64,000 nt of DNA from a virus. Under the pieces are notes generated by a model. It ran no database searches and was not told where the DNA came from. It was given only the letters and a program-made list of their open reading frames with translations. The DNA is taken from IMG/VR virus record IMGVR_UViG_3300017728_002360, one strand, 5' to 3'. This document shows, piece after piece, positions 1 through 34,735 of the stretch. Position numbers and translations under genes: made by a program. Numbering within the stretch: position 1 is the first letter of the stretch; every line of letters begins with the position of its first letter.

Positions 1-2
1 AG

Positions 3-185
3 AATCCTGCGTCAAACTTAGACGTAGAAGGTACTGCTGAATTTTCAGGAACAGTAAAATTTGCAAGTATGACAACTGTACAAAGAGACGCTTTAGGTAG
101 TGTTGCTCAAGGTATGGTAATCTACAATACTACTGCAAGTAAATTCCAAGGACGCACAGGCGTTGCTTGGGTCGACTTACACTAA
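3..185 (+). CDS. 3' end of a tail-fibre/virion structural-like protein (partial; absent from the ORF track)
   Basis: Manual translation from nt 3 gives NPASNLDVEGTAEFSGTVKFASMTTVQRDALGSVAQGMVIYNTTASKFQGRTGVAWVDLH*. The 'MTTxQRDAL..GMxIYNTT..KFQG..W' pattern is typical of phage fibre domains. Stop TAA at 183-185. Confidence 0.65.
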   Translation, partial: NPASNLDVEGTAEFSGTVKFASMTTVQRDALGSVAQGMVIYNTTASKFQGRTGVAWVDLH

Positions 186-725
186 ATTATAAGGATTTTT
201 TATAAAGCGAATGCTTAAGGCTAGCCGTGTCTTATCAGTATTGTTTATAACTTTGTGTGGTTGATTAATATCAAACAATACAGGTTTGTTTAAAGTGAAC
301 CTAGCTACTTCTTCAAACGTACTATCAGGACTAAAAACTTTATAGCTTTTACCCCCACCTGCTACAGTTTCATCTTCAATGATAATTTCTTTACCTGTTA
401 GATGCTTATACATTTCTGTATGTGTATCTTCACAGTTCTGTACAGGAAAGTTTAGTCCGTAATTTTGATCAACGGGTCTGTAATCAGTATGTGGCAATTT
501 AGTAGCAGGTTGTTCATTATGTTTATGAACCTTGATACCTACTAACCAACCCACTTCACAATCGTTCCATTTACACCATTCTAGGAACAAAGGACAATCT
601 GTTTTAAACTTATCCACGTCTAGTTTAACAACAGGATCATCAGAGGTCTGTATGTTTTCTAATCCCCACTCTTTGATCTCTTGTGAGACCCTATCATCTA
701 TGTCAATGTGCTTATAATAAAACAT
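177..725 (-). CDS. Fe(II)/2OG-dependent oxygenase (cupin, Asp/Asn beta-hydroxylase-like)
   Basis: HxD motif (PHTD), 'LNFPV', distal His in 'PVLFDINQPHKVIN', and terminal 'RLALSIRF' (2OG-binding Arg). Confidence 0.7.
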   Translation of the reverse strand: MFYYKHIDIDDRVSQEIKEWGLENIQTSDDPVVKLDVDKFKTDCPLFLEWCKWNDCEVGWLVGIKVHKHNEQPATKLPHTDYRPVDQNYGLNFPVQNCEDTHTEMYKHLTGKEIIIEDETVAGGGKSYKVFSPDSTFEEVARFTLNKPVLFDINQPHKVINNTDKTRLALSIRFIKNPYNLV

Positions 726-1281
726 GATCTTCCCACGGGTGTTTATCTAAATGTGCTAGAAACTCTTTTGGATTAAGTTTCCATACCGTTTGTTTTACAC
801 CTCTATAATCTATTTCTTTAATCTTTGTAAACAATCCTTGCTTGGTCATTATAGGCAACCATACTCTATGTACTGCTCTTTGTGACCCGCCCTCTGAATC
901 GTTTGTAGTACAATACATATTGCTATCCATACCACACCATTCAATCATCTTAGGAACGTAAAAACGTGAACTAAGATCTTCACAACGTTTCATTCTTCCC
1001 ATTGATCCTGCATTGTGTAACATACCGCCAACTGCACAGGTTCTTGTTAGTATACGATAACTGTTTTCTCCCATCTCTGGAAATGTATGTACTGCGGTTG
1101 CTCCCATGGCTTTGTCATCTTTAAACAATATAAACACTTGACTCTTTTCTTCATTGTTAAAAGCATCAATCATAATTTTTTGATTTGAGTTGTTTACGTA
1201 ACCCTGTTCGGCCGCTTCCTTGTAAAAATCTGTTAGGTCCATGTCCGGACTATGTTCTAAAAGTTTATAATATGTTTTCAT
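712..1281 (-). CDS. hypothetical protein, possible GNAT-fold acyltransferase
   Basis: Pattern 'VFILFKDDKAMGATAVH..YRILTRTC..MYCTTN..GLF' resembles GNAT beta-strand order; weak. Confidence 0.4.
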   Translation of the reverse strand: MKTYYKLLEHSPDMDLTDFYKEAAEQGYVNNSNQKIMIDAFNNEEKSQVFILFKDDKAMGATAVHTFPEMGENSYRILTRTCAVGGMLHNAGSMGRMKRCEDLSSRFYVPKMIEWCGMDSNMYCTTNDSEGGSQRAVHRVWLPIMTKQGLFTKIKEIDYRGVKQTVWKLNPKEFLAHLDKHPWEDHVLL

Positions 1282-2101
1282 AATTAAATGCTATTCTGTG
1301 AAGTATTCTATCTTCCATCTTTTCGTATGCCCAACGTTTGTGTATGCTTAACCATTGTTCACTAATTACAACATCACCATCTTCCCAATGATGATCGTAG
1401 ATGAACTGTGGTTGTGTAACGTGTTCTATAAGCCTACCCATTAGGTCTTCAAATTCGTCTTTTGTTTTTCCTGGCATACCAAGTATTTGCAAGAAAGGAA
1501 AATACATACCTGTCTTACCTGCGTCATTGGTGTGTACCAAACTAAAAGGTTTATCTTCTGCATGATGTTCTATAAAGAACTTGCTAGGACTGTATGATCC
1601 GCTTTTATATCCTAGTGTTATTAACGAGTCTTTTATTTCGTGTTTAAGCGAGTCACTCATTGCTTCGTAACTAGCAATATTATTAAGCCAACTTGTTTTG
1701 CTACCTTTAGTACCTTCAACTCCGTATAACCATATCAAAGGATCACGTTCATAGTTACTTGCCTGGTTGGCGTGCCAATCTAATGCAGATGTATGTCCAA
1801 ACAATCCTTCTTCACCCTTGTCATTCTTTTGTCCTGTAACACGAAGTATATGATTACCAACTGCTAGATGTTCTGTGCGTTGCCCTTCTTTGGGCTTCGT
1901 AGGATCTAGTATGTATTGTACGTTACCAATGTGTTTACAAAAATTAACTTCCTGCTCTGGTGTAAGAGTTTGATTCTTTACCACAACTACCATATTAGAT
2001 AAAATTAAACTTGCTATCTCTTTTGCAGTAGCAATATCAACATCTGCTAGATTTAAATCTTCTAGCTCTATGGCCCAATCATTTAAGTAATTAATCTTCA
2101 T
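1265..2101 (-). CDS. TauD/TfdA-family Fe(II)/2OG dioxygenase with atypical HxN metal motif
   Basis: 'VVVVKNQTLTPEQEVNF', 'DWHANQ', 'HHWEDGDVVISEQWLSIHKR' and 'RILHRI' match the TauD layout (WHxD ... WxxGDxxxxDN...HxR ... RxLxR). Confidence 0.8.
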   Translation of the reverse strand: MKINYLNDWAIELEDLNLADVDIATAKEIASLILSNMVVVVKNQTLTPEQEVNFCKHIGNVQYILDPTKPKEGQRTEHLAVGNHILRVTGQKNDKGEEGLFGHTSALDWHANQASNYERDPLIWLYGVEGTKGSKTSWLNNIASYEAMSDSLKHEIKDSLITLGYKSGSYSPSKFFIEHHAEDKPFSLVHTNDAGKTGMYFPFLQILGMPGKTKDEFEDLMGRLIEHVTQPQFIYDHHWEDGDVVISEQWLSIHKRWAYEKMEDRILHRIAFNYENIL

Positions 2102-2795
2102 TTACGTAACTTTCTAAATCTTCTGGTGTTCCAATACCTTGCATTGACACTACGTCAAATGCACAAACATTCGCACCTTCCTTTATAGTGTAGTTATACA
2201 CAGGGCAAGTGTAAAATTCATTGTTTACCCTATCATTGGCTTCTATCATTTGATCTATGTTTCTAAACATCTGTCCAGCATCACGCCAATAATAATATCC
2301 TACTGTAGCTCTATCTGATATTGCTTTCTTTTCTGCAACCTCTACAACTTTGTCTGCGACAGTTTTTGCAAAACTCCATTTAGGATTTCTGTCAGGACAT
2401 TCAAACGTTGCTATAAGTCCGTCAATGCCATTGTCTATAATTGTTCTAACTTTATTGCTATCCCATTCTACACTCTGATCACAGTTACTAACAAACACAC
2501 TATCGCCTTCAGCAAATAGCTCTTTGGCTTTGTATAGTGTACAAGCAGTACCTTCTGTGAGTTCGTCCAGCTCTATAACTGTTGCATTAGAATATAAATC
2601 TTTTATTGTGTCTGTGATATTATGATCCTTACGTACTATAAAAATACGTTCATCAAAATCAATACCTATCTGTTGTTCAGTATATTGAAACATAGGAATT
2701 CCTTTTACAGGAACTAAAGGCTTAGGTGTATCATATCCTTTTTCTTTAAATCTGTTTCCTTCGCCTGCCATAGGCATTATTAACTTAATACTCAT
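2091..2795 (-). CDS. sugar-phosphate nucleotidyltransferase (NTP_transferase family)
   Basis: N-terminal 'MPMAGEGNRF..GY..PKPL', 'TEGTACT', 'NCD', 'VAEK', 'NNEFY', 'GTPEDL'. Confidence 0.85.
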   Translation of the reverse strand: MSIKLIMPMAGEGNRFKEKGYDTPKPLVPVKGIPMFQYTEQQIGIDFDERIFIVRKDHNITDTIKDLYSNATVIELDELTEGTACTLYKAKELFAEGDSVFVSNCDQSVEWDSNKVRTIIDNGIDGLIATFECPDRNPKWSFAKTVADKVVEVAEKKAISDRATVGYYYWRDAGQMFRNIDQMIEANDRVNNEFYTCPVYNYTIKEGANVCAFDVVSMQGIGTPEDLESYVNED

Positions 2796-3369
2796 TTAAT
2801 AACCTCTTTAAATGTTCTACATTACTTACTTGTTTTACGGTAGCCGTAGTAGATGTTGCGGCTTGTATACCAACGGGACTATCCTCGAATATAACTGTTT
2901 GTGTAGGTGCAACTCCATAATGATACATAGCATAATAGTACATATCAACTTCAGGCTTTGCTCTGTGTTCCGTTGCAGTTAATACAGGATCAAACATATC
3001 TAACTCTTGTATCTTTAAACTTCTTTCAACAAACTTACGTGTTGCATTTGAGCAAACTGCAAGTTTATATTTTTTACTTAATCTAACAAATATATCTTTA
3101 AGTTCTTGATCAAACTTGATATACTTGCTTAAATCGTTCATTGTATATTCTTGTTTAAGATCCATTAACAAGGTTTCATCAAACTTGTAACCTTTTGCTT
3201 TGATATGTTCTATCTTACCAAAGGTAGGCATTCCTTCGACTTCTTCGTCGGTGTATTGTATTGCATTGTTGACTTTGGTACAAGCCCTTCTAAAGGCCTG
3301 TTGGTGTAATGGCTTACAGTCTGCCAACGTACCATCAAAGTCTAATATTAGTAAGTTAACAGTTTCCAT
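2785..3369 (-). CDS. HAD-superfamily phosphatase (beta-PGM/CbbY-like)
   Basis: Motif I DFDGTL, motif II CSN, motif III KP, motif IV FEDS..G. Confidence 0.88.
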   Translation of the reverse strand: METVNLLILDFDGTLADCKPLHQQAFRRACTKVNNAIQYTDEEVEGMPTFGKIEHIKAKGYKFDETLLMDLKQEYTMNDLSKYIKFDQELKDIFVRLSKKYKLAVCSNATRKFVERSLKIQELDMFDPVLTATEHRAKPEVDMYYYAMYHYGVAPTQTVIFEDSPVGIQAATSTTATVKQVSNVEHLKRLLNEY

Positions 3370-4103
3370 TCTATCTCATCTCTTAGGAAAATATTTTCTC
3401 CTGCATCACCAGTTAGTATGGCTTGCCAAATATGTGTATTCTTTACCCTGCGTTCTCCAAGTTCCATGAGCCAGGGATTTTCTTGAATTGACTCTATTGA
3501 TGTTAAAGGATCATCAGCCCACGGAAGTAAATTCTTAAACATTTCGTACGGACCTGCATAGTACCAATCCTCAGCTCTAAAGCAATCGTCATCAAAACTT
3601 ATCTCTGGACAATGTATCTTACCTTCTTGGAATTCAGGCAACGGACCTTTGCCTGCCGCATCAGATCTTCCTAGCCAAACATAATCATACTTGTTTGCAT
3701 TCTTTAAATTAAAACCAGCTATGCTTCTAAATGCTTTGGCTCTGCTAATATATTGTCCACAAGGAAAATTGTCAACATTAAAACTAGGATCGTAATCTTC
3801 TACTTCAATAAACTTAGGATTGTATATGCTATACTGATTAAGAATAGTTTCCTTGTTATTTTTTACTATCTCCCAATCGGGCGGATAGTATTTTGTTACC
3901 GCAGATGTTTCTGGGCGTGTACCGTCACCGTAGCGATACTTCTCATTGTCTTTGGTCCACTTACCAATTTGTGTCCAACTGTGTATGTATGTGTGTACCT
4001 TGTACTTCTCACATAACTGTTTATAGATTTCATCTTGCTTGTATGTTTCTGCTACTAGTCTAGCTTCACCGCCAATAACGTATGCTAGTGTTTTCTTTTT
4101 CAT
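3348..4103 (-). CDS. hypothetical protein, possible glycosyltransferase-like
   Basis: 'GEAR', 'HTYIHSW', 'YDYVWLGRSD' and 'DWYYAG' resemble the phage GT-like family with G..R / F.H.W / YD...R.D motifs. Confidence 0.4.
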   Translation of the reverse strand: MKKKTLAYVIGGEARLVAETYKQDEIYKQLCEKYKVHTYIHSWTQIGKWTKDNEKYRYGDGTRPETSAVTKYYPPDWEIVKNNKETILNQYSIYNPKFIEVEDYDPSFNVDNFPCGQYISRAKAFRSIAGFNLKNANKYDYVWLGRSDAAGKGPLPEFQEGKIHCPEISFDDDCFRAEDWYYAGPYEMFKNLLPWADDPLTSIESIQENPWLMELGERRVKNTHIWQAILTGDAGENIFLRDEIEWKLLTY

Positions 4104-5560
4104 CTGTACCTCACATGGGTATAATCATTCTTTATACTTTCGTTTAGATCCATAGCCACGTAATCATGTCCGTACAATGTAAGGTCTGGAGGAATAAGTC
4201 CTTTAAACTTTTTATACTTTAATTCTAACTGCTCCGGCTCTTCATTCCAATGTAACATTTCGCTTGACCAAATGTTTGTGGTCCATAATACTTTGTTACC
4301 CTGTTGGGCTTGTATAAGGTTAAACAAGTTTTCACTTTCGTTAACAATATCTATTTTGTAGAAGTTATGTTCAAGTTCTACATACCTATCCCACAACTGT
4401 TTAAATGCTATTGCACCACCAAATTCATTTAATTCTTGATGCCAATATGACTCGTAATTGCCTCTATACGTTGAGCTGAAGTTATACTTTAGGTCGTGTT
4501 CCAGTAGCCATAGGTGTAAATCCAAGCCATCCCACGTCTCTAATAGGTGTCTTTTGTATAGTAAACTAGCATCGCACCAATCAAAGTAGTGTACCCTTGT
4601 AAGTTCGTTGAATCCGTTTGTGTTTAATATTGCTAAAGGCTTAAAGCCTGCGGCCGCACTAAACAAGTGATCTATAGTTCCTGTGCGTTTACCTTCTGCT
4701 GATAATGTTTCTGTGTTAAACGCATATACTCTATCCTTTTCAATTTCTTCTTGATATCCTAGTTTGCGTATCCACGCCTTTTGATTATACTCTAATGTAT
4801 CTACTATAGGATCATATCGTTTGTTTAACCATACTTTTTCTAATGACTTGCTTTTATTGTATGGATATAAGAATACCTTGCACTCACGCATATCTAAAGT
4901 AAGGTTGTCTATTTGAATATTGTTTCTACAAGCTAGGTCAATCCAGTTGCTACCGTCTGATGTTATTTCCCATTTAGATTCGCCTGTATCTGATCTTACC
5001 CAAGCTGGAGTGTATTCACTGTTTACTGTATTTTTACTGAACGTTACATTTCTGTATGTAGGTTTTCTATCATGGAATATGCCTAGTTCATCAAACTCTG
5101 GCTTTCCTAGTTCTGTCCATTTGTCTAAATTAACAAATAGGTATTGTCTGTGCAATCCGGGATAAGCACCATGTGTTATATAATGGTGTTGACTTTTCTT
5201 GTCCATGATATGTCCAACTACAAAAAAGTCTGGTTTGTCTTTTGCGTATTCTAAACTTTTTGTAACTAAACTAGGTCCTCTAAATAACAAAAGACCTTGA
5301 CAAGCAATCATGCAATATTTTTTATTCTTTTGTATTGCATTTTCTAATAACTGTTTTACACTACTATCAAAGCCAACGTATGAAGCTAGTTTCATTTTTA
5401 ACATACGATTAACATAAAAGTATGTCATGTCGAATGTACGTTTACTTACAAACTCGCTTTCTATATCACGAGATATGTCAAGTATACCTATACCTACTTC
5501 GTTATTGTTTGATAAATCCTCGTAGTATCTATCTACTGATAGACTATTCCAATCCTTCAT
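4100..5560 (-). CDS. hypothetical two-domain protein (possible GT-like N-terminus plus SAM-binding-like C-terminus)
   Basis: 486-aa ORF overlapping both neighbours. C-terminal 'FSAAAGFK..VHYFDW' resembles a Rossmann/methyltransferase motif; function uncertain. Confidence 0.35.
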   Translation of the reverse strand: MKDWNSLSVDRYYEDLSNNNEVGIGILDISRDIESEFVSKRTFDMTYFYVNRMLKMKLASYVGFDSSVKQLLENAIQKNKKYCMIACQGLLLFRGPSLVTKSLEYAKDKPDFFVVGHIMDKKSQHHYITHGAYPGLHRQYLFVNLDKWTELGKPEFDELGIFHDRKPTYRNVTFSKNTVNSEYTPAWVRSDTGESKWEITSDGSNWIDLACRNNIQIDNLTLDMRECKVFLYPYNKSKSLEKVWLNKRYDPIVDTLEYNQKAWIRKLGYQEEIEKDRVYAFNTETLSAEGKRTGTIDHLFSAAAGFKPLAILNTNGFNELTRVHYFDWCDASLLYKRHLLETWDGLDLHLWLLEHDLKYNFSSTYRGNYESYWHQELNEFGGAIAFKQLWDRYVELEHNFYKIDIVNESENLFNLIQAQQGNKVLWTTNIWSSEMLHWNEEPEQLELKYKKFKGLIPPDLTLYGHDYVAMDLNESIKNDYTHVRYR

Positions 5561-6263
5561 GCAGTCTATCCTTATTCGTGTAATAACTTTTTCTTAAAAT
5601 ATAGAAGAAGTCTCTTGCACGTCTACCTATTTCAGAATGTATTATCATATGTATTCTTGGTTTGTCGCTTTGATTCCATACACTATGTACGTTGCTTATA
5701 TCCATTAAGAAAGCACTACCTTGATCTTTGAAAGGAACTATACCTTGGTCCTTCATTACAAATACACAACCTTCAGGATTATTTAAACTGATGTTGCATA
5801 CACTTAAACGTTTTTCTTCGTCCTTGCGATCTTGGTGTGGCATAATGTATCCACCTGGTTCCAATAACATAAATCTTACTCTGTTAAGATATTCTGCTGG
5901 CCATACATCTGTTAAAAACTTTTTAGTTTCGGGACAGTTATCTGCTACCCAAGTCCAATCTAATTGTTTTAAAACTTCGTCACGTTCTAGTCCGTAACTG
6001 TTTAGCGATTGCGTATCTTCATTAAGTCCGTGTAGTGTAAGGCTCTTCCAACCATGTCCGTAATCATCCCTATGACTGTGAAACTTATCAATTAAGTTTT
6101 CTGCTTCTACATACATACCATTAAAAGGTTGTTTGTCTAATGCACTTAAATGAAAGTAAGGCCACTGTGATTCTTCAAGTAACCATTGTACGTCAAATAG
6201 ATCTGGGTATTGTTTGTTAATGATTTTACCGTTTTCTTTGTGGAATGACATGAGATGTTTCAT
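5544..6263 (-). CDS. Asp/Asn beta-hydroxylase-like Fe(II)/2OG oxygenase
   Basis: 'GWKSLTLHG', 'RVRFMLLEPGGYIMPHQD', 'DISNVHSVWN', 'RIHMIIH'. Confidence 0.82.
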   Translation of the reverse strand: MKHLMSFHKENGKIINKQYPDLFDVQWLLEESQWPYFHLSALDKQPFNGMYVEAENLIDKFHSHRDDYGHGWKSLTLHGLNEDTQSLNSYGLERDEVLKQLDWTWVADNCPETKKFLTDVWPAEYLNRVRFMLLEPGGYIMPHQDRKDEEKRLSVCNISLNNPEGCVFVMKDQGIVPFKDQGSAFLMDISNVHSVWNQSDKPRIHMIIHSEIGRRARDFFYILRKSYYTNKDRLHEGLE

Positions 6264-6268
6264 AGTAA

Positions 6269-6274
6269 TATTTA
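6269..6274 (-). promoter_or_regulatory. T4-late-like promoter TAAATA, 5 nt upstream of the ATG at 6263
   Basis: Minus strand reads TAAATA-ttact-ATG; no Shine-Dalgarno sequence. Confidence 0.6.
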
Positions 6275-6309
6275 CCGCCAGGTCCCAGTTAAATGCTCAG
6301 TTTTGAGCT

Positions 6310-6315
6310 TAAATA
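6310..6315 (+). promoter_or_regulatory. T4-late-like promoter TAAATA, 5 nt upstream of the ATG at 6321
   Basis: Plus strand reads TAAATA-gtagt-ATG; divergent partner of the 6269-6274 motif. Confidence 0.6.
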
Positions 6316-6320
6316 GTAGT

Positions 6321-8343: not shown

Positions 8344-8794
8344 AGAGAACAAAGAAAAGCAACGTAAGGTCTATAAGCTAGAAGATAGATATAGAAAAGT
8401 CTGGGAAGGCGTACATCAAGAAATGATGGAAGAACACGTTGCGGTATTGAATACAGTAATGGAGGGTTGGGTAATTGATTGTGGAGTAACTACAAACTCA
8501 ACATGGATTGATTACCATATAGTTCCAGGTGTACCTGCAAATACATTTGAACATACCCCGGAGTTTGTTAGAAAGATATATGACTTCTGTATAGACAGCA
8601 TTAAACAAACGTCACCTTATGTGCATTATGATTGGGTGTTGAGTAACATCTTAATTGACGGAGATAATATGTATCTTATAGATTGGGATAACGTAGGATT
8701 GCACGAACCGTTAGATATACACAAGAAATTGGATAGTGATCTAAGGAGTGCTTTTGGAGAGAAATATGATGAAATGCTTGGCACCTTGGCATAG
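8330..8794 (+). CDS. minimal protein-kinase-like/APH-like phosphotransferase
   Basis: Catalytic loop 'HYDWVLSNIL' (HxDxxxxN) and metal-binding 'LIDWD'. Confidence 0.7.
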   Translation: MELIKENKEKQRKVYKLEDRYRKVWEGVHQEMMEEHVAVLNTVMEGWVIDCGVTTNSTWIDYHIVPGVPANTFEHTPEFVRKIYDFCIDSIKQTSPYVHYDWVLSNILIDGDNMYLIDWDNVGLHEPLDIHKKLDSDLRSAFGEKYDEMLGTLA

Positions 8795-22156: not shown

Positions 22157-22182
22157 ACTAATCTCCTACCATTAAATGCGTA

Positions 22183-22190
22183 TATAAATA
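22183..22190 (+). promoter_or_regulatory. T4 late promoter consensus TATAAATA, upstream of the 22218 operon
   Basis: Exact TATAAATA in the 61-nt divergent intergenic gap. Confidence 0.65.
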
Positions 22191-22196
22191 TAGTAA

Positions 22197-22203
22197 TATT
22201 TAT
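22197..22203 (-). promoter_or_regulatory. late-promoter-like ATAAATA, upstream of the 22156-9874 operon
   Basis: Minus strand reads ATAAATA ... AGGAG ... GTG. Confidence 0.55.
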
Positions 22204-22217
22204 GGAAGATTATTAAT

Positions 22218-27793: not shown

Positions 27794-28674
27794 TACCTAC
27801 CTAGTACTCTATCACTGTTTACATAAACAGTTTTAAAGAATTTACTTTGCTCCTCATCTAGTGCAACTTTACTTATAGGTAATCCTTGCTCTTGTAATAC
27901 TTCGCCATACTCGGCAATCATTTGTTCTACAGGATAGTCTTTAATCTCGTTCCAATATTCATTAAGCCATTTAAAATCTCTTGTTACAGAATGATCCCAA
28001 TCGGTTGCTAATATCTTTTGACAACCATCTCTAGCACCCATGATAGCATATAGTCCGTTGTCAACATCTGCACCAACATTTAACCAAACAAGTAATCTAT
28101 GATAATTTTGCCACCAAGTATTGTTTGCAAGATCCTGTACCTTTGCACCTCTGTTTAGTGACATCTTAACACCTTCTCTGAAACCTGCTCTCCAAGCCTG
28201 ATGTGGTGTTGAACTAATAATGCTTGTTGAATAGTTTTGATTAAGCTGATAGTAGTTGTCAAAGTAACAAAACTCTATCTGTGTATCGTCTGACCCGTCT
28301 GTGTTTTCGTGTGTTTTCATATTTCTAACAAAGTCTTTAGTCCACATCTTTAGACTTCCGTTGCCGTATTTTAATCCGTTGATGTCAATGTTACCACACC
28401 AACTAAACTGATAGTCATCATCTACACCTAGTTCGTCTAGATCAAGTACTACGTCTAAAAACTTTTGATCAATTATTGTGTCGCCGTCTACAGTAACAAA
28501 GTGTTTAGTTTCTGATTGCTCTGCACAGACTTTGTGTGCCGCATCTGAACCGTCTACACCGTGTACACGTTTTGCCCAGGGCACCTTCTTACACAGATCA
28601 ACATAATTTTTTTCTGCATTAGGTTCATCATAACTTAAGAATATGATATCTTGTTCAGCAATATTAATTTTCAT
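27793..28674 (-). CDS. GT-A-fold glycosyltransferase-like protein
   Basis: 'FLSYDEP', 'RVHGVDG..AH', DxD 'TVDGD', 'YGNGSLK', 'WRAGFREG'. Paralogue of 19434-20129. Confidence 0.62.
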   Translation of the reverse strand: MKINIAEQDIIFLSYDEPNAEKNYVDLCKKVPWAKRVHGVDGSDAAHKVCAEQSETKHFVTVDGDTIIDQKFLDVVLDLDELGVDDDYQFSWCGNIDINGLKYGNGSLKMWTKDFVRNMKTHENTDGSDDTQIEFCYFDNYYQLNQNYSTSIISSTPHQAWRAGFREGVKMSLNRGAKVQDLANNTWWQNYHRLLVWLNVGADVDNGLYAIMGARDGCQKILATDWDHSVTRDFKWLNEYWNEIKDYPVEQMIAEYGEVLQEQGLPISKVALDEEQSKFFKTVYVNSDRVLGR

Positions 28675-29305
28675 TCTTTATCCTTAGTTCAACCCTACGC
28701 AAATCACTCACTGGATTACAAGCAGGAATACGACCATAGTATCTATAATAGTTAATTAGCATCTGCATTTCAGCTTCTTTTACAAGACTGTTGTGCATTG
28801 GCAAGTATGCTTGATATACGTTATCAATGTATTCCTTACCTATCTTTTCCTTAAATGCAGTACCACAACCATATGGTGATAACCTATCGTTACGTACTGT
28901 ACCTTTAAAATCTGTGCGTCTACCTAGCATACAGTTTCTAGTTGTTGCTCTGCTTTCGCCAATGTATATTACACCTGGTTGTAAAATGTCTGCTACTTCG
29001 GGAGCTGAATCCTTAAACATTCCATACATATAACAGCCGGCATCTTTTTTATCAAACCCCCAACTAGCGTCATACTTCTCATCAATATGATGCCATGTTG
29101 TAAACTTGTCAAACTTTGGCATACCTAGTTTGTAAGATTGTGTTGTAAGATATTCTTTTCCACCATGCTCTAACACCTTTTTCATAGTGTATGCAAAGTC
29201 TTCCAAGTTATCTATTTTATCAAATATCTTTACAAGCTGATCCTGTTTAAGACCATGCCCACCAGAACCTTTTACAATGTTTTCTGCTAATATTTTTGAC
29301 TTCAT
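28664..29305 (-). CDS. GIY-YIG nuclease-domain protein
   Basis: 'GCY..(spacer)..VIYIGES..GR..EAE..PACN' reproduces the GIY / YIG / R / E / N catalytic set. Confidence 0.6.
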   Translation of the reverse strand: MKSKILAENIVKGSGGHGLKQDQLVKIFDKIDNLEDFAYTMKKVLEHGGKEYLTTQSYKLGMPKFDKFTTWHHIDEKYDASWGFDKKDAGCYMYGMFKDSAPEVADILQPGVIYIGESRATTRNCMLGRRTDFKGTVRNDRLSPYGCGTAFKEKIGKEYIDNVYQAYLPMHNSLVKEAEMQMLINYYRYYGRIPACNPVSDLRRVELRIKNEN

Positions 29306-29889
29306 TCTATAACCTCATATTTGTAACTGTCGAACTTCTTTATAGTATACACTGAAATCGGCTTGTTGTCAAACTCAAATTGTTCGCTAAATGGTAAAAC
29401 AATGTATTTTCCACCTATAAGTTTGTCAAACGTAAATTGTAGTGTTTTATAAAGAATGTTTGGATCGTCTTTCTTGGTTATACTAAATGATAAATGTCCA
29501 TTTGTCAAGCTAATTTTTTGTGCTAAAATGTTCATTTCTAAATCGCCACCTATTGTTATCTTCCAGCAGGTATCTTTTACATTTTTAGTAACTGTTATAT
29601 CCGCATTGTTTCCTGTTGTTGGTAGCTCGTATATTAAGTCGTCAACAAAGTAACTGTCTATGTCATGATTGCTACGTTGCCTTAGTTCGTATGTATTAGC
29701 TCTTTTAATATAGTGTACATAATAGAAGTGCATACTTTCTCTGCCTTCGATTATACCCTTTACTTCCTCGTCTGCTACAGGAATAAAACTTCCTTCAGTG
29801 GGTTTGATGTTTGGCAATGACAGTAGTTCTCCTGTTGTAGGATCAAATACTGCATAACGTTCATTGACTACTGTAATACCTAGTTGCAT
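29302..29889 (-). CDS. hypothetical protein
   Basis: 195-aa ORF overlapping both neighbours; no recognisable motif. Confidence 0.6.
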   Translation of the reverse strand: MQLGITVVNERYAVFDPTTGELLSLPNIKPTEGSFIPVADEEVKGIIEGRESMHFYYVHYIKRANTYELRQRSNHDIDSYFVDDLIYELPTTGNNADITVTKNVKDTCWKITIGGDLEMNILAQKISLTNGHLSFSITKKDDPNILYKTLQFTFDKLIGGKYIVLPFSEQFEFDNKPISVYTIKKFDSYKYEVIE

Positions 29890-30821
29890 CTAAAGTCCTT
29901 TACAGTTTGTACAAAGTTTCTAACATTTTCTACAGGAGTTTCTTTGTTAACTCCGTGTGCTAGATTAACTATGTAAGGTTTGTCTTTCATTTTTTCTAAC
30001 ATTGATGTAGGATTAGCATCAGCAAGTAATTCACTAATGGGTATGCCTCCTTGTAAAACAACGTTAGTAGATACTTCTTCTACAGGTATGTCATCACTTA
30101 AATTGATGCAGTCAGGATTTACTATTTTTGCAAAGTCATTTATATTTTTACCTATCAGCCTTGGAAAAGCAATTATGCTAACTTCAGGGTATATCTTTCT
30201 TATAGCTTCTACTATTTTTGCTGTTGGAGAATAACATAGTTTATCTAGTTCTTGTTCTGTTAGATCTCCTGCCCAACTATCAAATATCTGTACTGTGTCG
30301 CACCCTGCTTCTATTTGGTGTACTAGGTGTTCAATTATGTAAGGAACTAATCCTTCTATAACTTTTTGATCTTTGTTACCACACATATACTTACAAAGTG
30401 TATAAGGTGCTCCAACAAATCCTATCAAGCTCTTGTTACTATCTAGTTCTTGCCTAGTTTGTTTGATTGCATCATACACAGGTTGACATCTTTCTATAAA
30501 AAGAAACCTATCCGTGTTTAGCATATCTTCATTATAAGGTCCTAGCTTTGGTGCAGGATTATAATCTAGTTCTTGTCCGAGTGCATAAGGAATAACAAGT
30601 ATGTCAGAAAAAATTATTGCCGCATCCATATCAAATGCTTTGATGGGTTGCATTGTTATCTCTGTTGCCTTGCTTGGTGTAAGTGCCATATCCAAGAATC
30701 CGTTACTAGCTTCTTTGATTGCCATGTACTCAGGCATATATCTTCCAGCCTGACGCATTAACCACACAGGGTATAAGTTTGTTTCCTTATCTTTAATAGT
30801 TCTTTGTAATATAGTTTTCAT
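29880..30821 (-). CDS. hemE: uroporphyrinogen decarboxylase
   Basis: Signature 'PVWLMRQAGRYMPEY', 'DAAIIFSDIL', 'GFVGAPYTL', 'QIFDSW', 'NLAHG'. Confidence 0.95.
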   Translation of the reverse strand: MKTILQRTIKDKETNLYPVWLMRQAGRYMPEYMAIKEASNGFLDMALTPSKATEITMQPIKAFDMDAAIIFSDILVIPYALGQELDYNPAPKLGPYNEDMLNTDRFLFIERCQPVYDAIKQTRQELDSNKSLIGFVGAPYTLCKYMCGNKDQKVIEGLVPYIIEHLVHQIEAGCDTVQIFDSWAGDLTEQELDKLCYSPTAKIVEAIRKIYPEVSIIAFPRLIGKNINDFAKIVNPDCINLSDDIPVEEVSTNVVLQGGIPISELLADANPTSMLEKMKDKPYIVNLAHGVNKETPVENVRNFVQTVKDFRCN

Positions 30822-31635
30822 ATTTTTTAATTTTCTCTTCGGTTAAGAACTCTTTTTCTGTGTAATGAAAGATTCCTGATTGTAAATGATTACCTATCTT
30901 TAGTGTTAGGTCATCTGTAAGATATGATCCTACTCTGCTACGCCAAGTAGCACTACCGTTTCTCCAACCTTGTATGTGTGGCTTCATGTGTGTAAACGTA
31001 GGAAACTTAACACGTTTATTTGTAATCTTATCTTCACAGTCTAGTATCTTTGTTACTATAGCTGTGCTTGTATCCACACTTAAAAACTTTTGATATTGTT
31101 CCTTTGCATACTTTCCGTAAAACATCTGCCAGTTATTCATTACAATTTCTAGCAACGTATAAAATTCTTTTGCAAAATTACATTTTTTAAAGTAATGGAA
31201 TCCTGCATATACATTAGGAAGGTTATTTGCTTTGTATGTTTTTCTATAATGGTTGTCTATTACCTTTTCACCTCTATATGTATAAACATTTGAGGTATAG
31301 AACACTTCATAGTTTTCTAAAAACTTCCACCATGTGTCTATGTTCTGCAATACTAACATATCGGTATCCAACACAATAGTTCTATCATAAGGACTTGCAT
31401 GGTATAACTTCCAACGGTTGTCTACCTTCCAATCATTGTCCTTTGCATCATCTAACCAAGGTATGGGTTTGATAACATCAAACAATTTTTCATACCTAGA
31501 TGGCACTTTATCGTTGGTTATTAAACAAATGTTGGCGTCATTAGTAGCTTTAATACTCATAGCTAACACACACGCCTGCTGTACGTAATCGTATTCGCTG
31601 TTTTGTGCTATTAATACGAATCCTTTACTAGGCAC
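30793..31635 (-). CDS. GT-A glycosyltransferase (GT8/mannosyltransferase-like)
   Basis: 'YVQQACVLAMSIK', 'SPYDRTIVLDTDML' (DxD), 'HMK', 'FHY'. Confidence 0.68.
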   Translation of the reverse strand: MPSKGFVLIAQNSEYDYVQQACVLAMSIKATNDANICLITNDKVPSRYEKLFDVIKPIPWLDDAKDNDWKVDNRWKLYHASPYDRTIVLDTDMLVLQNIDTWWKFLENYEVFYTSNVYTYRGEKVIDNHYRKTYKANNLPNVYAGFHYFKKCNFAKEFYTLLEIVMNNWQMFYGKYAKEQYQKFLSVDTSTAIVTKILDCEDKITNKRVKFPTFTHMKPHIQGWRNGSATWRSRVGSYLTDDLTLKIGNHLQSGIFHYTEKEFLTEEKIKKYENYITKNY

Positions 31636-31816
31636 TTTTGCTCCCTACTGGTTTACACACATATTCTACTGTGTCCCATTCACCATCTTGTGGTATTTCT
31701 TTGTATAATATAAGCATTGTATTACATTCTTTTTCATCTTTGAACCACTGTACGTCTTGTGTTTTGCAATCACTACCTAAACATACAGTAAGTAGTATAT
31801 GCCAAATGAATTCCAT
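31628..31816 (-). CDS. small exported Cys-containing protein
   Basis: 62 aa, hydrophobic N-terminus, four Cys. It fills the gap exactly, with start/stop overlaps on both sides. Confidence 0.6.
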   Translation of the reverse strand: MEFIWHILLTVCLGSDCKTQDVQWFKDEKECNTMLILYKEIPQDGEWDTVEYVCKPVGSKSA

Positions 31817-32589
31817 TACAGTACTCCTCTTATTTTTACAATGTCGCCTATAATTTTTTCAAAGTCTTCAATCCTAACCATGTTAGGTCCGTCACTAGGT
31901 GCATTGTCTGGATCATTATGAACCTCCATAAAGAAACTATCTATTCCTAATGCCGCTCCGGCTCTTGATAAACCTGGAACGTATGCTCTGTTACCCCCAC
32001 TACTGTCTCCTTTGCCTCCTGGCTTTTGAACAGAGTGCGTAACATCATATACTATTGGTACATCAAAATTATCTAACATATATTGTAGTCCTGTAAAGTC
32101 AGACACTAATGTATTATAACCAAAACTAGTTCCTCTTTCAGTTATCCATACTTCGTTTGCACCGTTTGTTTTACTTAATATGCCCTTGACATCCCATGGT
32201 GCTAGGAATTGTCCTTTCTTGATGTTAACAATCTTTCCTGTTTTACAAGCCGCCTTGATTAAATCTGTTTGCCTACACAAGAAAGCAGGTATTTGTAAAA
32301 CGTCTACAGCTTCGTTGTAGTATGCCGCAATTTTTAATACTTCGTTTTGGGTATGCACGTCAGTTAAAGTTTTTATACCAAGGTCATTTTTAAGAACTAT
32401 AAAGTCTTCCATGGTAGTTGCAAGGCCAACACCCCTTGTACCATCAGCTGAAGTCCTATTTGCTTTGTCAAAACTTGCTTTGAAGTAATATTCTATCTCG
32501 TGTTTATCACATACACGTTTACATTCTTTTGCAATCATCAAACTGTCAGTAAGTGTTTCATGTTGACAAGGACCTGCAATTATTCTCAT
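31816..32589 (-). CDS. kdsA: 3-deoxy-D-manno-octulosonate 8-phosphate (KDO8P) synthase, metal-dependent type
   Basis: 'IAGPC', 'KASFDKANRTS', 'QIPAFLCRQTDL', 'NIKKGQF', 'ERGTSFGY', 'DVTHSVQ', 'FMEVH', 'PSDG'. Confidence 0.96.
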   Translation of the reverse strand: MRIIAGPCQHETLTDSLMIAKECKRVCDKHEIEYYFKASFDKANRTSADGTRGVGLATTMEDFIVLKNDLGIKTLTDVHTQNEVLKIAAYYNEAVDVLQIPAFLCRQTDLIKAACKTGKIVNIKKGQFLAPWDVKGILSKTNGANEVWITERGTSFGYNTLVSDFTGLQYMLDNFDVPIVYDVTHSVQKPGGKGDSSGGNRAYVPGLSRAGAALGIDSFFMEVHNDPDNAPSDGPNMVRIEDFEKIIGDIVKIRGVL

Positions 32590-33449
32590 TACACTACTCC
32601 TCTATCTATAATTCTGTTAAGGCTAAACTTGTTCATAACGTGAATGTTACTGCCTTTGATACGCAATGGTGTATATTCTCCTAGGTGATTCTCTTTTTCT
32701 AGTAAGAATAAAAAATTATCCTGGTCAAGTTCCCACAAAATATCTCTATCTGCTGTGTAATACTTTGTACCTGGTAACTTATGTGCAAAGTCTCCTTCTT
32801 GGTAACCATTCATTATGTGTATTGCTACACTAAACACATGGTCGTTACGGAAAAGACCTCTGTTTACTTGAAAGATGCTGTTATAGTGGTCCCAGTTTTC
32901 TTGTATGTGCTTTGTTAGTTCAAAGAATACCTTGTTCTCTTCTGACTTTCTAAAGAATATAACAGTAGCCCAATAAAAGTCTATGCTACTATCACTAATC
33001 TTTTCAAACTCAGCAGTATCTCTCCAGGCTGTTAGGTCTTTTGCATTTTTAAATATTAGAAAATTGTGATCTTGTTCAAAGCAATTTTTAAATAAGCTAT
33101 TTGCTATAATATAATCACTGTCTAGTAGTATTGTTTCGTCATATGGTGTTAGTTCATATGACTGTGTGCGTAGGTCATTCTTAAATTGTAAGTGCTTTGC
33201 TACTCCCGACCCATCAAAATATCTTTTAGTAGTCGAATTGTTTGTGAAAGGCACTTCAATGACTTTATCAAAAACTTCTTCATAGTCCTTGTACGTTTCC
33301 TTTAGGTAATCTACACTATCCGTAACTATGCTAGTTGGTATATCTAAATATTTTCTTATTCTTTTAGCTGAATAGTGAGCTTGTTTTATGTAATCAATCT
33401 GTGCATTGTTACGTGCAAAGATTAATGCACCTTTAGTCTTCTTTGTCAT
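32589..33449 (-). CDS. GT-A glycosyltransferase (GT8/mannosyltransferase-like)
   Basis: 'TPYDETILLDSDY' (DxD), 'WATVIFF', 'RND', 'HVMNK'. Distant paralogue of 30793-31635. Confidence 0.65.
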   Translation of the reverse strand: MTKKTKGALIFARNNAQIDYIKQAHYSAKRIRKYLDIPTSIVTDSVDYLKETYKDYEEVFDKVIEVPFTNNSTTKRYFDGSGVAKHLQFKNDLRTQSYELTPYDETILLDSDYIIANSLFKNCFEQDHNFLIFKNAKDLTAWRDTAEFEKISDSSIDFYWATVIFFRKSEENKVFFELTKHIQENWDHYNSIFQVNRGLFRNDHVFSVAIHIMNGYQEGDFAHKLPGTKYYTADRDILWELDQDNFLFLLEKENHLGEYTPLRIKGSNIHVMNKFSLNRIIDRGVV

Positions 33450-33792
33450 AATCTACTAATCCCGAAACCTTGCGTTTAGCTCTTAGCTTTTGGTATTCTG
33501 TTTCGTATTCGTTAGTAGATGTAAAATAAACGTCACTAATATTATCGTAGAATTCATGAAGCTGTTCTATTCTTATTGGAGTGTCATTATCGTCTACAAT
33601 AACAACGTTTGAGTCATCGTTATCACACAGAATTTTTACAAAAGTCAATAGTTCTTGTGTAACAGAAAATTGTCCACCATTAAAATAGTAAATTCTGCTT
33701 TCAAGAAACTTCTCTTTTAACACTCTTTTTTGGTTATTAAGAGTCACCATATAATTAGAAAAGTCTAAGGCTTTTTTTAATCTTTCATCCAT
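33433..33792 (-). CDS. hypothetical protein (first gene of the GT/KdsA/HemE operon)
   Basis: 119-aa ORF downstream of a TAAATA motif; function unknown. Confidence 0.6.
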   Translation of the reverse strand: MDERLKKALDFSNYMVTLNNQKRVLKEKFLESRIYYFNGGQFSVTQELLTFVKILCDNDDSNVVIVDDNDTPIRIEQLHEFYDNISDVYFTSTNEYETEYQKLRAKRKVSGLVDYDKED

Positions 33793-34730: not shown

Positions 34731-34735
34731 TTAAT

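What the first reader, a model, noticed from the sequence alone, without database searches (positions are those of the whole stretch)
177..33792. 33.6-kb phage biosynthetic supercluster (9 radical SAM, 4 Fe/2OG oxygenases, glycosyltransferases) between virion genes: candidate virion glycan-decoration system
Seen: about 38 contiguous, mostly overlapping genes, nearly all enzymes. They cover sugar supply (KdsA, nucleotidyltransferase, HAD, kinase, two NDP-sugar dehydrogenases), tailoring (9 rSAM, 4 oxygenases, 2 SDRs, aminotransferase, methyltransferase, GNAT, 3 SGNH) and transfer (5-6 GT-like). A fibre-like gene bounds the left end (3-185) and fibre/baseplate genes bound the right. No polysaccharide export genes (Wzx/Wzy/ABC) or replication genes are present. 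Established: twitch-domain rSAMs such as BtrN, NeoN and HygY oxidise or epimerise sugars and aminocyclitols together with aminotransferases and reductases. Inference: this is a cytoplasmic pathway building a heavily modified glycan on virion proteins or another cytoplasmic acceptor. It could affect antibody/grazer/receptor interactions or help evade host sensing.
Basis: partly seen in the sequence, partly recalled or inferred. Interest (0 to 1): 0.92.

Follow-up and report, generated by a model that had tools for sequence, protein, structure and literature searches.

The report
Radical-SAM and glycosyltransferase island beside phage fibres
An uncultured marine giant phage carries, between its tail-fibre genes, a real 33-kb block of soluble sugar-handling enzymes and nine iron-sulfur radical SAM enzymes that most likely builds an unusual sugar decoration, probably for the virus particle, though no chemistry has been shown.

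Summary
Positions 177-33792 carry 40 tightly packed genes plus one 62-aa ORF. There are nine intact radical SAM (rSAM) genes, five of them in the uncharacterised N-terminal-twitch family NF033640. There are three solid Fe/2OG oxygenases and one weak one, two NDP-sugar dehydrogenases, a nucleotidyltransferase, a HAD enzyme, KdsA and a class III aminotransferase. Two glycosyltransferase folds were confirmed (a GT-B protein and a GT-A domain), and a GT8-like pair matches glycogenin. The SGNH, GNAT, methyltransferase and one GT-A-like pair rest on motifs only.

The core is syntenic in more than 80 marine viral contigs and always follows the fibre/baseplate genes. A fibre gene also bounds the far side. 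Operon starts carry the same TAAATA box as the structural genes. All products but one look soluble, and no export genes were found. A mini-version sits behind virion genes in the cultured Ralstonia phage RsoM2USA. A five-gene core sits with GT2 genes in Bdellovibrionota chromosomes.

Sugar tailoring is well supported. A virion acceptor is plausible but unproven. This scan has already reported the same island type on other DNA.

The parts
1..185 (+). 3' end of a 459-aa fibre-like gene with an Mtd_N domain, convergent on the island; this is the left boundary
   Evidence: A 64%-identical gene directly follows the g07 orthologue in relatives L005, L006, L008 and L010.
177..725 (-). g01: weak Asp/Arg-hydroxylase-like cupin; accessory
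   Evidence: E 0.004, below the cut-off.
712..1281 (-). g02: unknown; the GNAT claim is not confirmed
   Evidence: found in 6 related loci.
1265..2101 (-). g03: TauD-family Fe/2OG dioxygenase
   Evidence: 92 bits.
2091..2795 (-). g04: sugar-1-phosphate nucleotidylyltransferase-like; accessory cassette
   Evidence: In L005 and L008 it sits elsewhere in the island.
2785..3369 (-). g05: HAD-IA phosphatase / beta-phosphoglucomutase-like
3348..4103 (-). g06: unknown (phrog_13607)
4100..5560 (-). g07: N-terminal GT-A fold plus a C-terminal Rossmann / methyltransferase-like domain; core gene
   Evidence: AF2 pLDDT 89. VIA Z about 10 to Mimivirus R699, PBCV-1 A64R and the LH3 GT domain. Relatives are fused to Asp_Arg_Hydrox, rSAM or GNAT domains.
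5544..6263 (-). g08: Asp/Asn beta-hydroxylase-family Fe/2OG oxygenase; core; preceded by a TAAATA box at 6269
6255..7316 (+). g09: radical SAM with a C-terminal SPASM domain; likely true start at 6321, behind a TAAATA box at 6310
7306..8343 (+). g10: N-terminal-twitch radical SAM (NF033640)
   Evidence: 245 bits.
8330..8794 (+). g11: 154-aa APH-like mini-kinase (weak)
   Evidence: E 4.5e-4.
8748..9893 (+). g12: N-terminal-twitch radical SAM
   Evidence: 230 bits; found in 80 of 80 loci.
9874..10425 (-). g13: short SDR-like protein (TG..G and YxxxK motifs by eye)
10422..11354 (-). g14: radical SAM without a SPASM hit
11355..11879 (-). g15: short SDR (sub-threshold); accessory
   Evidence: found in 17 of 80 loci.
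11876..12997 (-). g16: class III (BioA-like) aminotransferase; accessory
   Evidence: found in 11 of 80 loci.
12997..14301 (-). g17: N-terminal-twitch radical SAM; the best-conserved core gene
   Evidence: 431 bits. It is 72-94% identical in 80 viral loci and 45-50% identical in Bdellovibrionota.
14298..15137 (-). g18: hydroxymethylbilane synthase (HemC); accessory cargo
   Evidence: found in 13 of 80 loci.
15134..15742 (-). g19: class I methyltransferase-like (motif only); deep core
   Evidence: Found in 79 of 80 viral loci and 32 of 70 bacterial loci.
15742..16131 (-). g20: small protein with a hydrophobic N-terminus; accessory
16128..16874 (-). g21: truncated NDP-sugar dehydrogenase (248 aa)
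16871..17863 (-). g22: radical SAM with a C-terminal SPASM domain; deep core
17863..18480 (-). g23: Asp/Asn beta-hydroxylase-family oxygenase
18470..19447 (-). g24: radical SAM; deep core
19434..20129 (-). g25: GT-A-like by motif (DGD); paralogue of g33; deep core
   Evidence: There is no significant PDB or profile support.
20122..21021 (-). g26: SGNH-like (GDS ... DxxH motifs by eye)
   Evidence: no PDB support.
21014..22156 (-). g27: NDP-sugar dehydrogenase; a TAAATA box lies upstream at 22197
22183..22190 (+). The only TATAAATA in the window, 28 nt before g28, in the divergent promoter gap
   Evidence: 1 copy found against 9.7 expected.
22218..23486 (+). g28: GT-B fold glycosyltransferase, closest to GT10
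23479..24357 (+). g29: SGNH-like by motif
   Evidence: Lipase_GDSL_3, E 0.3.
24341..25516 (-). g30: N-terminal-twitch radical SAM
   Evidence: 397 bits.
25516..26436 (-). g31: SGNH-like by motif
26417..27793 (-). g32: N-terminal-twitch radical SAM; 36% identical to RsoM2USA ORF349
27793..28674 (-). g33: paralogue of g25 (GT-A-like by motif); junction core
28664..29305 (-). g34: unknown; present only sporadically in relatives
29302..29889 (-). g35: unknown; conserved junction gene
29880..30821 (-). g36: HemE-like URO-D family protein; accessory
   Evidence: found in 3 of 25 loci.
30793..31635 (-). g37: GT8-like (glycogenin-like) glycosyltransferase; junction core
31628..31816 (-). Conserved 62-aa Cys-containing ORF with a hydrophobic N-terminus
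31816..32589 (-). g38: KdsA; accessory insertion
   Evidence: Absent from 25 of 25 junction loci and located elsewhere in G001.
32589..33449 (-). g39: GT8-like; paralogue of g37; junction core
33433..33792 (-). g40: small conserved gene directly after the fibre gene (possibly a fibre chaperone; inference); TAAATA box at 33817
33840..40096 (-). g41-g44: fibre-like genes including a tail-collar / gp10_C protein; this is the right boundary
40736..55456 (-). 4906-aa fibre/adhesin-like protein with CBM_5_12, FG-GAP and T7 tail-fibre N domains
   Evidence: The RsoM2USA counterpart ORF361 is a virion protein confirmed by mass spectrometry (PMC8504454).

Best explanation
The island is a late-expressed module of soluble enzymes embedded in the tail-fibre/baseplate block of an uncultured marine jumbo myovirus.

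Proposed working, with shown and inferred steps marked:
1. Supply. Nucleotide-sugar enzymes provide activated sugars. The families are shown: a nucleotidyltransferase, a HAD enzyme, two NDP-sugar dehydrogenases and, in this genome, KdsA.
2. Tailoring. Nine radical SAM enzymes (five of the unstudied N-terminal-twitch type), mini-SDRs, an aminotransferase, a methyltransferase-like protein and Fe/2OG oxygenases remodel the sugar or its attachment site. The chemistry is inferred.
3. Transfer. Soluble glycosyltransferases transfer the product in the cytoplasm. These are a GT-B protein, a GT-A-fold protein, a GT8-like pair and a GT-A-like pair. The folds are shown; the activity is inferred.
4. Acceptor. 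The most likely acceptor is a virion fibre or baseplate protein (inferred). Asp/Asn-hydroxylase-type oxygenases may create hydroxyl attachment sites, as in LH3 and Mimivirus collagen modification. That idea comes from gene fusions in relatives.

KdsA, HemC, HemE, the aminotransferase and the nucleotidyltransferase cassette are accessory cargo, not core.
For: - Families and folds.
- All nine rSAM genes have an intact CxxxCxxC, and all but one island protein lack hydrophobic segments.
- The core g07-g32 is syntenic in 80 viral loci.
- The order g46...g41-g40-g39-g37-g35-g33-g32 is kept in 25 of 25 relatives, down to 30% identity.
- In four long relatives the hub gene lies 40-44 kb from g17, against 46 kb here.
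- A fibre gene also bounds the left end, here and in four relatives.
- TAAATA boxes precede g08, g09, g27, g28 and g40 and the structural genes g42, g45, g47 and g48. About 0.01 is expected per gene. None precedes the deazaguanine-region genes of the left flank, apart from one copy 7 nt before L001:11529-12416 that overlaps the upstream stop codon.
- The cultured phage RsoM2USA has ORF347-354, matching g19, g25, g32, g33, g35, g37, g39 and g40, directly after virion proteins confirmed by mass spectrometry.
- In Bdellovibrionota the g17/g22/g24/g19/g25 core sits among GT2 glycosyltransferases.
- Relatives of g07 are fused to Asp_Arg_Hydrox domains.
Against: - No glycan, glycoprotein or enzyme activity has been measured anywhere for this gene set.
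- The link to virion proteins is positional and regulatory only.
- The GT-B model ties with the DNA-modifying T4 beta-glucosyltransferase (Z 10.8, against 11.0 for the GT10 fucosyltransferase).
- g07 lacks a canonical DxD motif.
- Radical SAM/SPASM enzymes most often act on peptides.
- In Bdellovibrionota a fibre-like neighbour was seen in only 3 of 70 loci, which is about chance level.
- HemC and HemE do not fit a glycan pathway.
- The published view of comparable islands favours modification of the host O-chain (PMC7029224).
Confidence: 0.5

Rival explanations
1. Host-directed auxiliary metabolism. The enzymes change the host's nucleotide-sugar pool or surface glycans (LPS or capsule) during infection, for example to block superinfection. 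The host's own membrane machinery would do the export.
For: Zaragoza-Solas et al. 2020 (PMC7029224) read the GT8, UDP-glucose dehydrogenase and rSAM cassettes in the fibre-region islands of pelagimyophages this way. KdsA and the NDP-sugar dehydrogenases make precursors used in envelope glycans. The accessory cassettes shuffle as AMG cargo does.
Against: No lipid-carrier priming transferase, flippase, polymerase or Gtr-type membrane protein was found, and the products look soluble. The boxes are of the late type, shared with structural genes. The core rSAM set has no counterpart in known LPS pathways. The order behind the fibre genes is conserved from marine phages to a soil Ralstonia phage.
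Confidence: 0.18
2. The radical SAM enzymes and hydroxylases act directly on virion or other proteins or peptides (epimerisation, cross-links, C-methylation, beta-hydroxylation). Glycosylation would be only one of several post-translational steps, or a separate function.
For: SPASM/twitch rSAM enzymes are best known as peptide maturases, and the weak secondary hits are to such families. Asp_Arg_Hydrox enzymes hydroxylate protein residues. g07 relatives are fused to hydroxylase, rSAM and GNAT domains. A conserved 62-aa Cys-containing ORF lies in the island.
Against: No RRE/PqqD domain or leader-type precursor was found. The small ORF is absent from the core loci and from the bacterial loci. The deep core always travels with GT-like genes, and with GT2 genes in bacteria.
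Confidence: 0.14
3. A diffusible small molecule, such as an aminoglycoside-like or nucleoside-sugar natural product, is made during infection.
For: Kinase-like and methyltransferase-like genes are present.
Against: The aminotransferase and one SDR are accessory, found in 11 and 17 of 80 loci. No export, resistance or cyclitol/scaffold synthase gene was found. Multiple GTs and the location in the fibre module are not explained.
Confidence: 0.08
4. DNA hypermodification. The glycosyltransferases and tailoring enzymes decorate a modified base.
For: The GT-B model aligns as well with T4 beta- and alpha-glucosyltransferases as with GT10. Earlier notes place a DpdA / 7-deazaguanine cluster 9-22 kb to the left (not verified here beyond 2OG oxygenase hits).
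Against: The island holds no base-activating enzyme: no hydroxymethylase, TET/JBP or transglycosylase. Its oxygenases are of the AspH and TauD types. The deazaguanine cluster is separate, is said to carry its own GT, and lacks TAAATA boxes. The core also occurs in bacterial chromosomes next to GT2 genes.
Confidence: 0.07

Closest known systems
Host recognition cluster (HRC) of pelagimyophages and cyanomyophages (Zaragoza-Solas et al. 2020, PMC7029224)
   Same: It is a large variable island inside the structural module. It holds tail-fibre genes together with GT8-type glycosyltransferases, UDP-sugar dehydrogenase, Asp/Asn beta-hydroxylase and radical SAM cassettes, and its function is untested.
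   Different: The phage lineage differs: the hub protein is closest, at about 35% identity, to the PA5oct and Rak2-type jumbo phages. Here the enzyme core is strongly syntenic rather than non-syntenic. It holds nine rSAM genes and is bounded by fibre genes on both sides.
NCBIfam NF033640, N_Twi_rSAM (twitch domain-containing radical SAM protein)
   Same: Five island proteins score 230-431 bits against a cut-off of 170 and have the N-terminal Cys-rich domain followed by CxxxCxxC.
   Different: The family has no characterised member and no close solved structure, so membership says nothing about substrate.
Virus-encoded virion glycosylation: mycobacteriophage capsid and tail-tube glycosylation (Freeman et al. 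2023, as cited in PMC12619734), PBCV-1 A64R, and Mimivirus R699/L230 collagen modification (PMC9546862, PMC12279948)
   Same: Soluble viral glycosyltransferases are encoded beside structural genes. The g07 N-domain is structurally nearest to R699, A64R and the LH3 GT domain. The hydroxylase-plus-GT logic is seen as fusions in g07 relatives.
   Different: None of those systems uses radical SAM enzymes. The hydroxylase here is of the AspH type, not the lysyl-hydroxylase type. No glycan has been shown on these virions.
Ralstonia phage RsoM2USA ORF347-354 (PMC8504454; all annotated as hypothetical)
   Same: The genes follow the fibre genes in the same order: g40-, g39-, g37-, g35-, g33-, g32-, g25- and g19-like, at 27-44% identity. 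The adjacent ORF356, ORF359 and ORF361 are virion proteins confirmed by mass spectrometry.
   Different: It has only one radical SAM gene and no oxygenases, dehydrogenases or SGNH-like genes. It is a soil phage of a plant pathogen.
Twitch radical SAM sugar enzymes such as BtrN (recalled from knowledge, not tested)
   Same: A radical SAM enzyme with one auxiliary cluster, acting in a sugar or aminocyclitol pathway beside an aminotransferase and reductases.
   Different: The twitch domain is C-terminal in BtrN and N-terminal here. No significant sequence match to any solved rSAM was found.

Membership tests
Radical SAM superfamily (PF04055) | Score above the gathering threshold and an intact CxxxCxxC cluster motif | tested here: met
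   Nine proteins score 33-52 bits against the threshold of 29.5. Each has one CxxxCxxC.
NF033640 N_Twi_rSAM | Whole-protein score above the curated cut-off of 170 bits | tested here: met
   g10 245, g12 230, g17 431, g30 397 and g32 318 bits.
NF033640 N_Twi_rSAM | Cys-rich SPASM/twitch-like domain on the N-terminal side of the radical SAM core | tested here: met
   A Pfam SPASM hit lies at residues about 3-85, ahead of the Radical_SAM hit, in four of the five. Cys6, Cys82 and Cys85 are conserved.
GT-B glycosyltransferases (GT10-like) | Two-Rossmann-domain GT-B fold | tested here: met
   g28 model pLDDT 92. All top Foldseek hits are GT-B enzymes. VIA Z 11.0 to H. pylori alpha1,3-fucosyltransferase.
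GT-B glycosyltransferases (GT10-like) | Assignment to family GT10 rather than to another GT-B family | tested here: inconclusive
   There is no Pfam hit. The atlas lead is only 0.78-0.79. T4 BGT ties at Z 10.8.
GT8 (glycogenin/LgtC-type GT-A) | Sequence-profile match across the nucleotide-binding region, including the DxD motif | tested here: met
   The g37/g39 profile matches glycogenin-1 at E 4.3e-7 over residues 4-113. LDTD and LDSD motifs are present.
GT8 (glycogenin/LgtC-type GT-A) | Pfam Glyco_transf_8 above its gathering score | tested here: not met
   No Pfam hit even at E up to 5.
GT-A fold for g25/g33 | Fold-level or profile-level match to a GT-A enzyme | tested here: inconclusive
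   Only a DGD motif and a weak hit to DPM synthase at E 0.81. A deeper profile and hhalign gave nothing.
LH3 / Mimivirus L230-type hydroxylase-glycosyltransferase | Fe/2OG hydroxylase and a GT-A domain in one polypeptide or operon | tested here: met
   g08 and g07 are adjacent. Five of ten long g07 relatives carry Asp_Arg_Hydrox in the same chain. The g07 N-domain aligns to the LH3 GT domain at Z 9.8.
LH3 / Mimivirus L230-type hydroxylase-glycosyltransferase | Lysyl-hydroxylase-type oxygenase and a collagen-like substrate | tested here: not met
   The oxygenase is of the Asp_Arg_Hydrox type. No collagen-like gene was seen in the window.
Viral virion-glycosylation systems | Glycan demonstrated on virion proteins | not testable with these tools
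   This needs glycoproteomics or staining of virions.
Viral virion-glycosylation systems | Virus-encoded soluble GTs adjacent to structural genes | tested here: met
HRC of pelagimyophages/cyanomyophages | Island with fibres and GTs inside the structural module | tested here: met
   paper read.
HRC of pelagimyophages/cyanomyophages | Belongs to the T4-like PMP/CMP lineage, between VrlC and gp14 | tested here: inconclusive
   The best hub relatives are PA5oct and Rak2-type jumbo phages. No Pelagibacter or cyanophage is among the ten commonest hit organisms. The neck region is not on the contig.
KdsA (NF003543) | Score above the equivalog cut-off | tested here: met
   338.5 bits against 242.
HemC (TIGR00212) | Score above the equivalog cut-off | tested here: met
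   270.3 bits against 164.
HemE (TIGR01464) | Score above the equivalog cut-off | tested here: not met
   257.4 bits against 302.95. Pfam URO-D is passed at 240 bits, so it is a URO-D family member of uncertain specificity.
RiPP radical SAM/SPASM maturase systems | Precursor peptide and RRE/PqqD recognition domain | tested here: inconclusive
   No RRE or PqqD hit. The single small ORF is not part of the conserved core.
Phage DNA glycosylation systems | A base-activating enzyme (hydroxymethylase, TET/JBP or transglycosylase) encoded with the GTs | tested here: not met
   No such family was hit in 177-33792.

The most novel reading that the evidence does not exclude
Abundant marine jumbo phages use a conserved battery of oxygen-independent radical SAM enzymes of an unstudied family, together with Fe/2OG hydroxylases and several glycosyltransferases, to install a hypermodified glycan on their tail-fibre or baseplate proteins. 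This would be a type of virion decoration chemistry not described for any virus. Its five-gene core (three rSAM genes, a methyltransferase-like gene and a GT-like gene) is shared with predatory Bdellovibrionota.
Probability: 0.3. Interest if true: 0.85.

Novelty: new variant of a known kind. Interest (0 to 1): 0.64.

Why it matters
If the product sits on fibres or the baseplate, it would bear on host recognition, enzyme resistance and grazing or immune evasion in a phage lineage that is common in ocean metagenomes. The g17 search found 4,820 homologous proteins at E <= 1e-5, with the closest on contigs of up to 315 kb. It would also give a first substrate context for radical SAM family NF033640, which has no characterised member. 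The mini-island in the cultured phage RsoM2USA makes the question testable at the bench. If the island instead remodels host glycans, it is a large and unusual auxiliary metabolic module.

Tried and rejected
- Megablast of 25 kb against 50,697 phage records found no match.
- PHROGs on ten unknown proteins gave one family of unknown function.
- Pfam at E up to 5 on the unknown proteins gave nothing useful.
- Sequence-profile searches of the PDB gave no meaningful hits for g28, g25, g07, g26, g19, g29, g34 and the g25/g33 family. The SGNH, methyltransferase, GIY-YIG and g25/g33 GT-A labels therefore stay at motif level.
- hhalign of the g25/g33 profile against the g07 and GT8-like profiles was not significant.
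- g17 against the PDB gave no solved relative.
- Genome search with the five-paralogue alignment failed for lack of conserved stretches. A single-protein scan found nothing. Relatives cannot be drawn for a virus record.
- A tetrapyrrole-product hypothesis, prompted by HemC and HemE, was rejected. Both genes are accessory (13 of 80 and 3 of 25 loci), they lie in different slots, and no HemB, HemD or HemL was seen.
- A link between fibres and the module in Bdellovibrionota was rejected as unsupported. An S74 fibre-like neighbour was found in 3 of 70 loci, about what chance would give.
- Literature searches for phage HemE auxiliary genes and for the N-terminal-twitch family found nothing relevant.
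- The atlas structure search of g07 returned only unnamed viral clusters.

Full report
**Source.** The window is the reverse complement of an 83-kb viral contig, which the virus-record completeness estimates place at roughly a quarter of a jumbo-phage genome of about 350 kb. The right third of the window encodes a gp10_C/tail-collar fibre protein, a 4906-aa protein with CBM_5_12, FG-GAP and T7 tail-fibre N domains, gp25, a gp5-type hub and gp53. The hub is closest, at about 35% identity, to the PA5oct, Rak2 and related jumbo myoviruses. No phage record matches at the DNA level.

**Observation.** Between 177 and 33792 lie 40 ORFs of 80 aa or more with almost no intergenic DNA, plus a conserved 62-aa ORF.

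Family searches gave the following:
- Nine radical SAM proteins, each with one intact CxxxCxxC. Five exceed the cut-off of NCBIfam NF033640, which has the auxiliary-cluster domain in front of the radical SAM core (alignment). Two carry a C-terminal SPASM domain and two have none.
- A TauD-family dioxygenase, two Asp/Asn beta-hydroxylase-family oxygenases, and a third that is sub-threshold.
- KdsA, one complete and one truncated NDP-sugar dehydrogenase, a sugar-1-phosphate nucleotidylyltransferase-like protein, a HAD-IA enzyme and a BioA-like class III aminotransferase.

No transporter, flippase, polymerase or replication family was hit. Only the 129-aa g20 has a clearly hydrophobic segment.

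**The unknown proteins.** Thirteen proteins had no Pfam or PHROG function.
- g28 (22218-23486). I folded it from a 35-sequence alignment (pLDDT 92). It has a GT-B fold: every leading Foldseek match is a GT-B glycosyltransferase. By VIA the best match is the H. pylori GT10 fucosyltransferase (Z 11.0), tied with T4 beta-glucosyltransferase (Z 10.8). The language-model search also pointed weakly to GT10.
- g07 (4100-5560). It belongs to a family with 624 representative clusters. Folded from 55 sequences (pLDDT 89), it has an N-terminal GT-A fold. That domain is nearest to Mimivirus R699 collagen glucosyltransferase, PBCV-1 A64R and the GT domain of human LH3 (Z 9.8-10.0). It also has a C-terminal Rossmann or methyltransferase-like domain.
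- Long relatives of g07. Five of ten carry an Asp_Arg_Hydrox domain in the same chain, and others carry radical SAM, B12-radical SAM, GNAT or RibD_C domains. Because g08, next door, is an Asp_Arg_Hydrox protein, the pair reproduces the hydroxylase-plus-transferase logic of LH3.
- g37 and g39. They are paralogues, and their joint profile matches glycogenin (GT8) at E 4e-7 across the DxD region.
- g25 and g33. They are paralogues (E 9e-24) with a GT-A-like DGD motif, but nothing significant supports the fold.
- The SGNH-like trio (g26, g29, g31), the methyltransferase-like g19, the mini-SDRs g13 and g15 and the mini-kinase g11 rest on motifs or sub-threshold hits. No GNAT was found.

**Conservation.**
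- g17 has 141 relatives in IMG/VR, the best 80 at 72-94% identity. It has 4,820 homologues at E <= 1e-5 in the large protein collection, and the closest lie on contigs of up to 315 kb, many labelled Tara.
- Mapping all window proteins onto the 80 loci shows a syntenic core from g07 to g32.
- A second scan with g37 shows the order g46-g45-g44-g43-g42-g41-g40-g39-g37-g35-g33-g32 in 25 of 25 relatives, including ones at only 30% identity.
- In four long relatives the hub gene lies 40-44 kb from g17, against 46 kb here.
- On the other side the island ends at a convergent 459-aa fibre-like gene with an Mtd_N domain. In four relatives this gene directly follows g07.
- The following are accessory: KdsA (0 of 25 junction loci, and elsewhere in one genome), HemE (3 of 25), HemC (13 of 80), the aminotransferase (11 of 80), g15, g20, g34 and the g04-g06 cassette, which sits at another place in L005 and L008.

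**Regulation.** TATAAATA occurs once in 64 kb against 9.7 expected, 28 nt before g28. The shorter TAAATA, usually as TAAATAnTAnTA, precedes every start of a transcription unit in the island: g08, g27, g28, g40, and an in-frame alternative start of g09 at 6321. It also precedes the structural genes g42, g45, g47 and g48. About 0.01 is expected per gene. In the left flank it precedes the fibre gene and a few others. It does not precede the genes of the region that earlier notes describe as a 7-deazaguanine cluster, apart from one copy 7 nt before L001:11529-12416 that overlaps the upstream stop codon. The timing itself is inferred.

**Relatives outside the lineage.**
- Among 50,697 phage records, only Ralstonia phage RsoM2USA has homologues of g33 and g32.
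- Its ORF347-354 are, in order, g19-, g25-, g32-, g33-, g35-, g37-, g39- and g40-like, directly after a g41/g44-like fibre gene. The neighbouring ORF356, ORF359 and ORF361 were found in virions by mass spectrometry (PMC8504454).
- A scan of one genome per prokaryote species found full-length g17 homologues at 45-50% identity in about 55 Bdellovibrionota genomes, including an isolate and closed chromosomes. They co-locate with g22 (55 of 70), g24 (51 of 70), g19 (32 of 70) and g25/g33 (23 and 12 of 70).
- The precomputed Pfam context there shows up to ten radical SAM genes beside GT2 glycosyltransferases, a GNAT and, once, a weak PMT_2 hit.
- In Bdellovibrio sp. HCB2-146 the module abuts a 1959-aa Peptidase_S74 protein of the phage-fibre-like MAT type (PMC10769870). 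Similar neighbours appear in only 3 of 70 loci, which is about chance, so I do not count this as evidence.

**Interpretation.** Sugar chemistry is the best-supported theme. Nucleotide-sugar enzymes, two confirmed GT folds and a GT8-like pair are present. The deep core travels with GT-like genes in phages and with GT2 genes in bacteria.

A cytoplasmic acceptor follows from the soluble, export-free gene set. The virion is the favoured acceptor for four reasons: the island is fixed inside the fibre/baseplate block across wide divergence, it shares promoter-like boxes with structural genes, it has a miniature counterpart behind proven virion genes, and the g08/g07 pair resembles protein hydroxylase-glycosyltransferase enzymes. 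None of this shows a glycan on a protein.

The rivals are host-glycan remodelling (the published view for comparable islands, PMC7029224), direct protein modification by the radical SAM enzymes, a small-molecule product, and DNA hypermodification. None is excluded, and each is weighed in its own section of this report.

HemC and HemE remain unexplained cargo.

**Novelty.** Multiple radical SAM genes in marine T4-like genomes have been noted in print (PMC5332604), and so have fibre-region islands with GTs and rSAM cassettes (PMC7029224), but without function. Virus-encoded virion glycosylation is known in other systems. A radical-SAM-rich version is not. Earlier follow-ups in this scan reported the same island type, the NF033640 assignment and the Bdellovibrionota link on other genomes, and I re-derived these independently here. 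I rate the island a new variant of a known kind.

Noticed in passing
window 14298-15137 (-) and 29880-30821 (-): A true HemC and a HemE-like URO-D gene lie inside the island as accessory cargo (13 of 80 and 3 of 25 related loci). No HemB, HemD or HemL was seen on the contig. I found no report of phage-borne hemC or hemE in the paper library.
   Followed up: partly
window 31628-31816 (-): A 62-aa ORF with a hydrophobic N-terminus and four Cys lies between KdsA and g37, translationally coupled to both. It is 40-80% identical in ten relatives.
   Followed up: partly
window 6269-6274, 6310-6315, 59474-59479: TAAATAnTAnTA boxes end only 6 nt before the ATG of g08, g09 (alternative start 6321) and gp25. 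If these are late promoters, the mRNAs would be leaderless or nearly so.
   Followed up: no
window 40736-55456 (-): A 4906-aa protein carries CBM_5_12, FG-GAP and T7 tail-fibre N-terminal domains. Its RsoM2USA counterpart, ORF361, is a confirmed virion protein.
   Followed up: partly
L181 (Ralstonia phage RsoM2USA 215949-222310): ORF347-354, all annotated as hypothetical, form a mini-version of the island in a cultured phage. This gives a bench model.
   Followed up: partly
L001 2821-5335 (left flank) and L179 5813-8121: A MoxR-type AAA ATPase with a VWA/DUF2201 or DUF58 partner lies near the module both in this phage and in one Bdellovibrionia MAG. This may be chance.
   Followed up: no
window 28664-29305 (-): g34 is present only sporadically among close relatives, as a mobile gene would be. 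A GIY-YIG-like motif was seen by eye only, with no database support.
   Followed up: partly
window 63254-64000: The last 747 bases of the window are not in the held 83-kb assembly, so the window comes from a slightly longer version of the contig.
   Followed up: no
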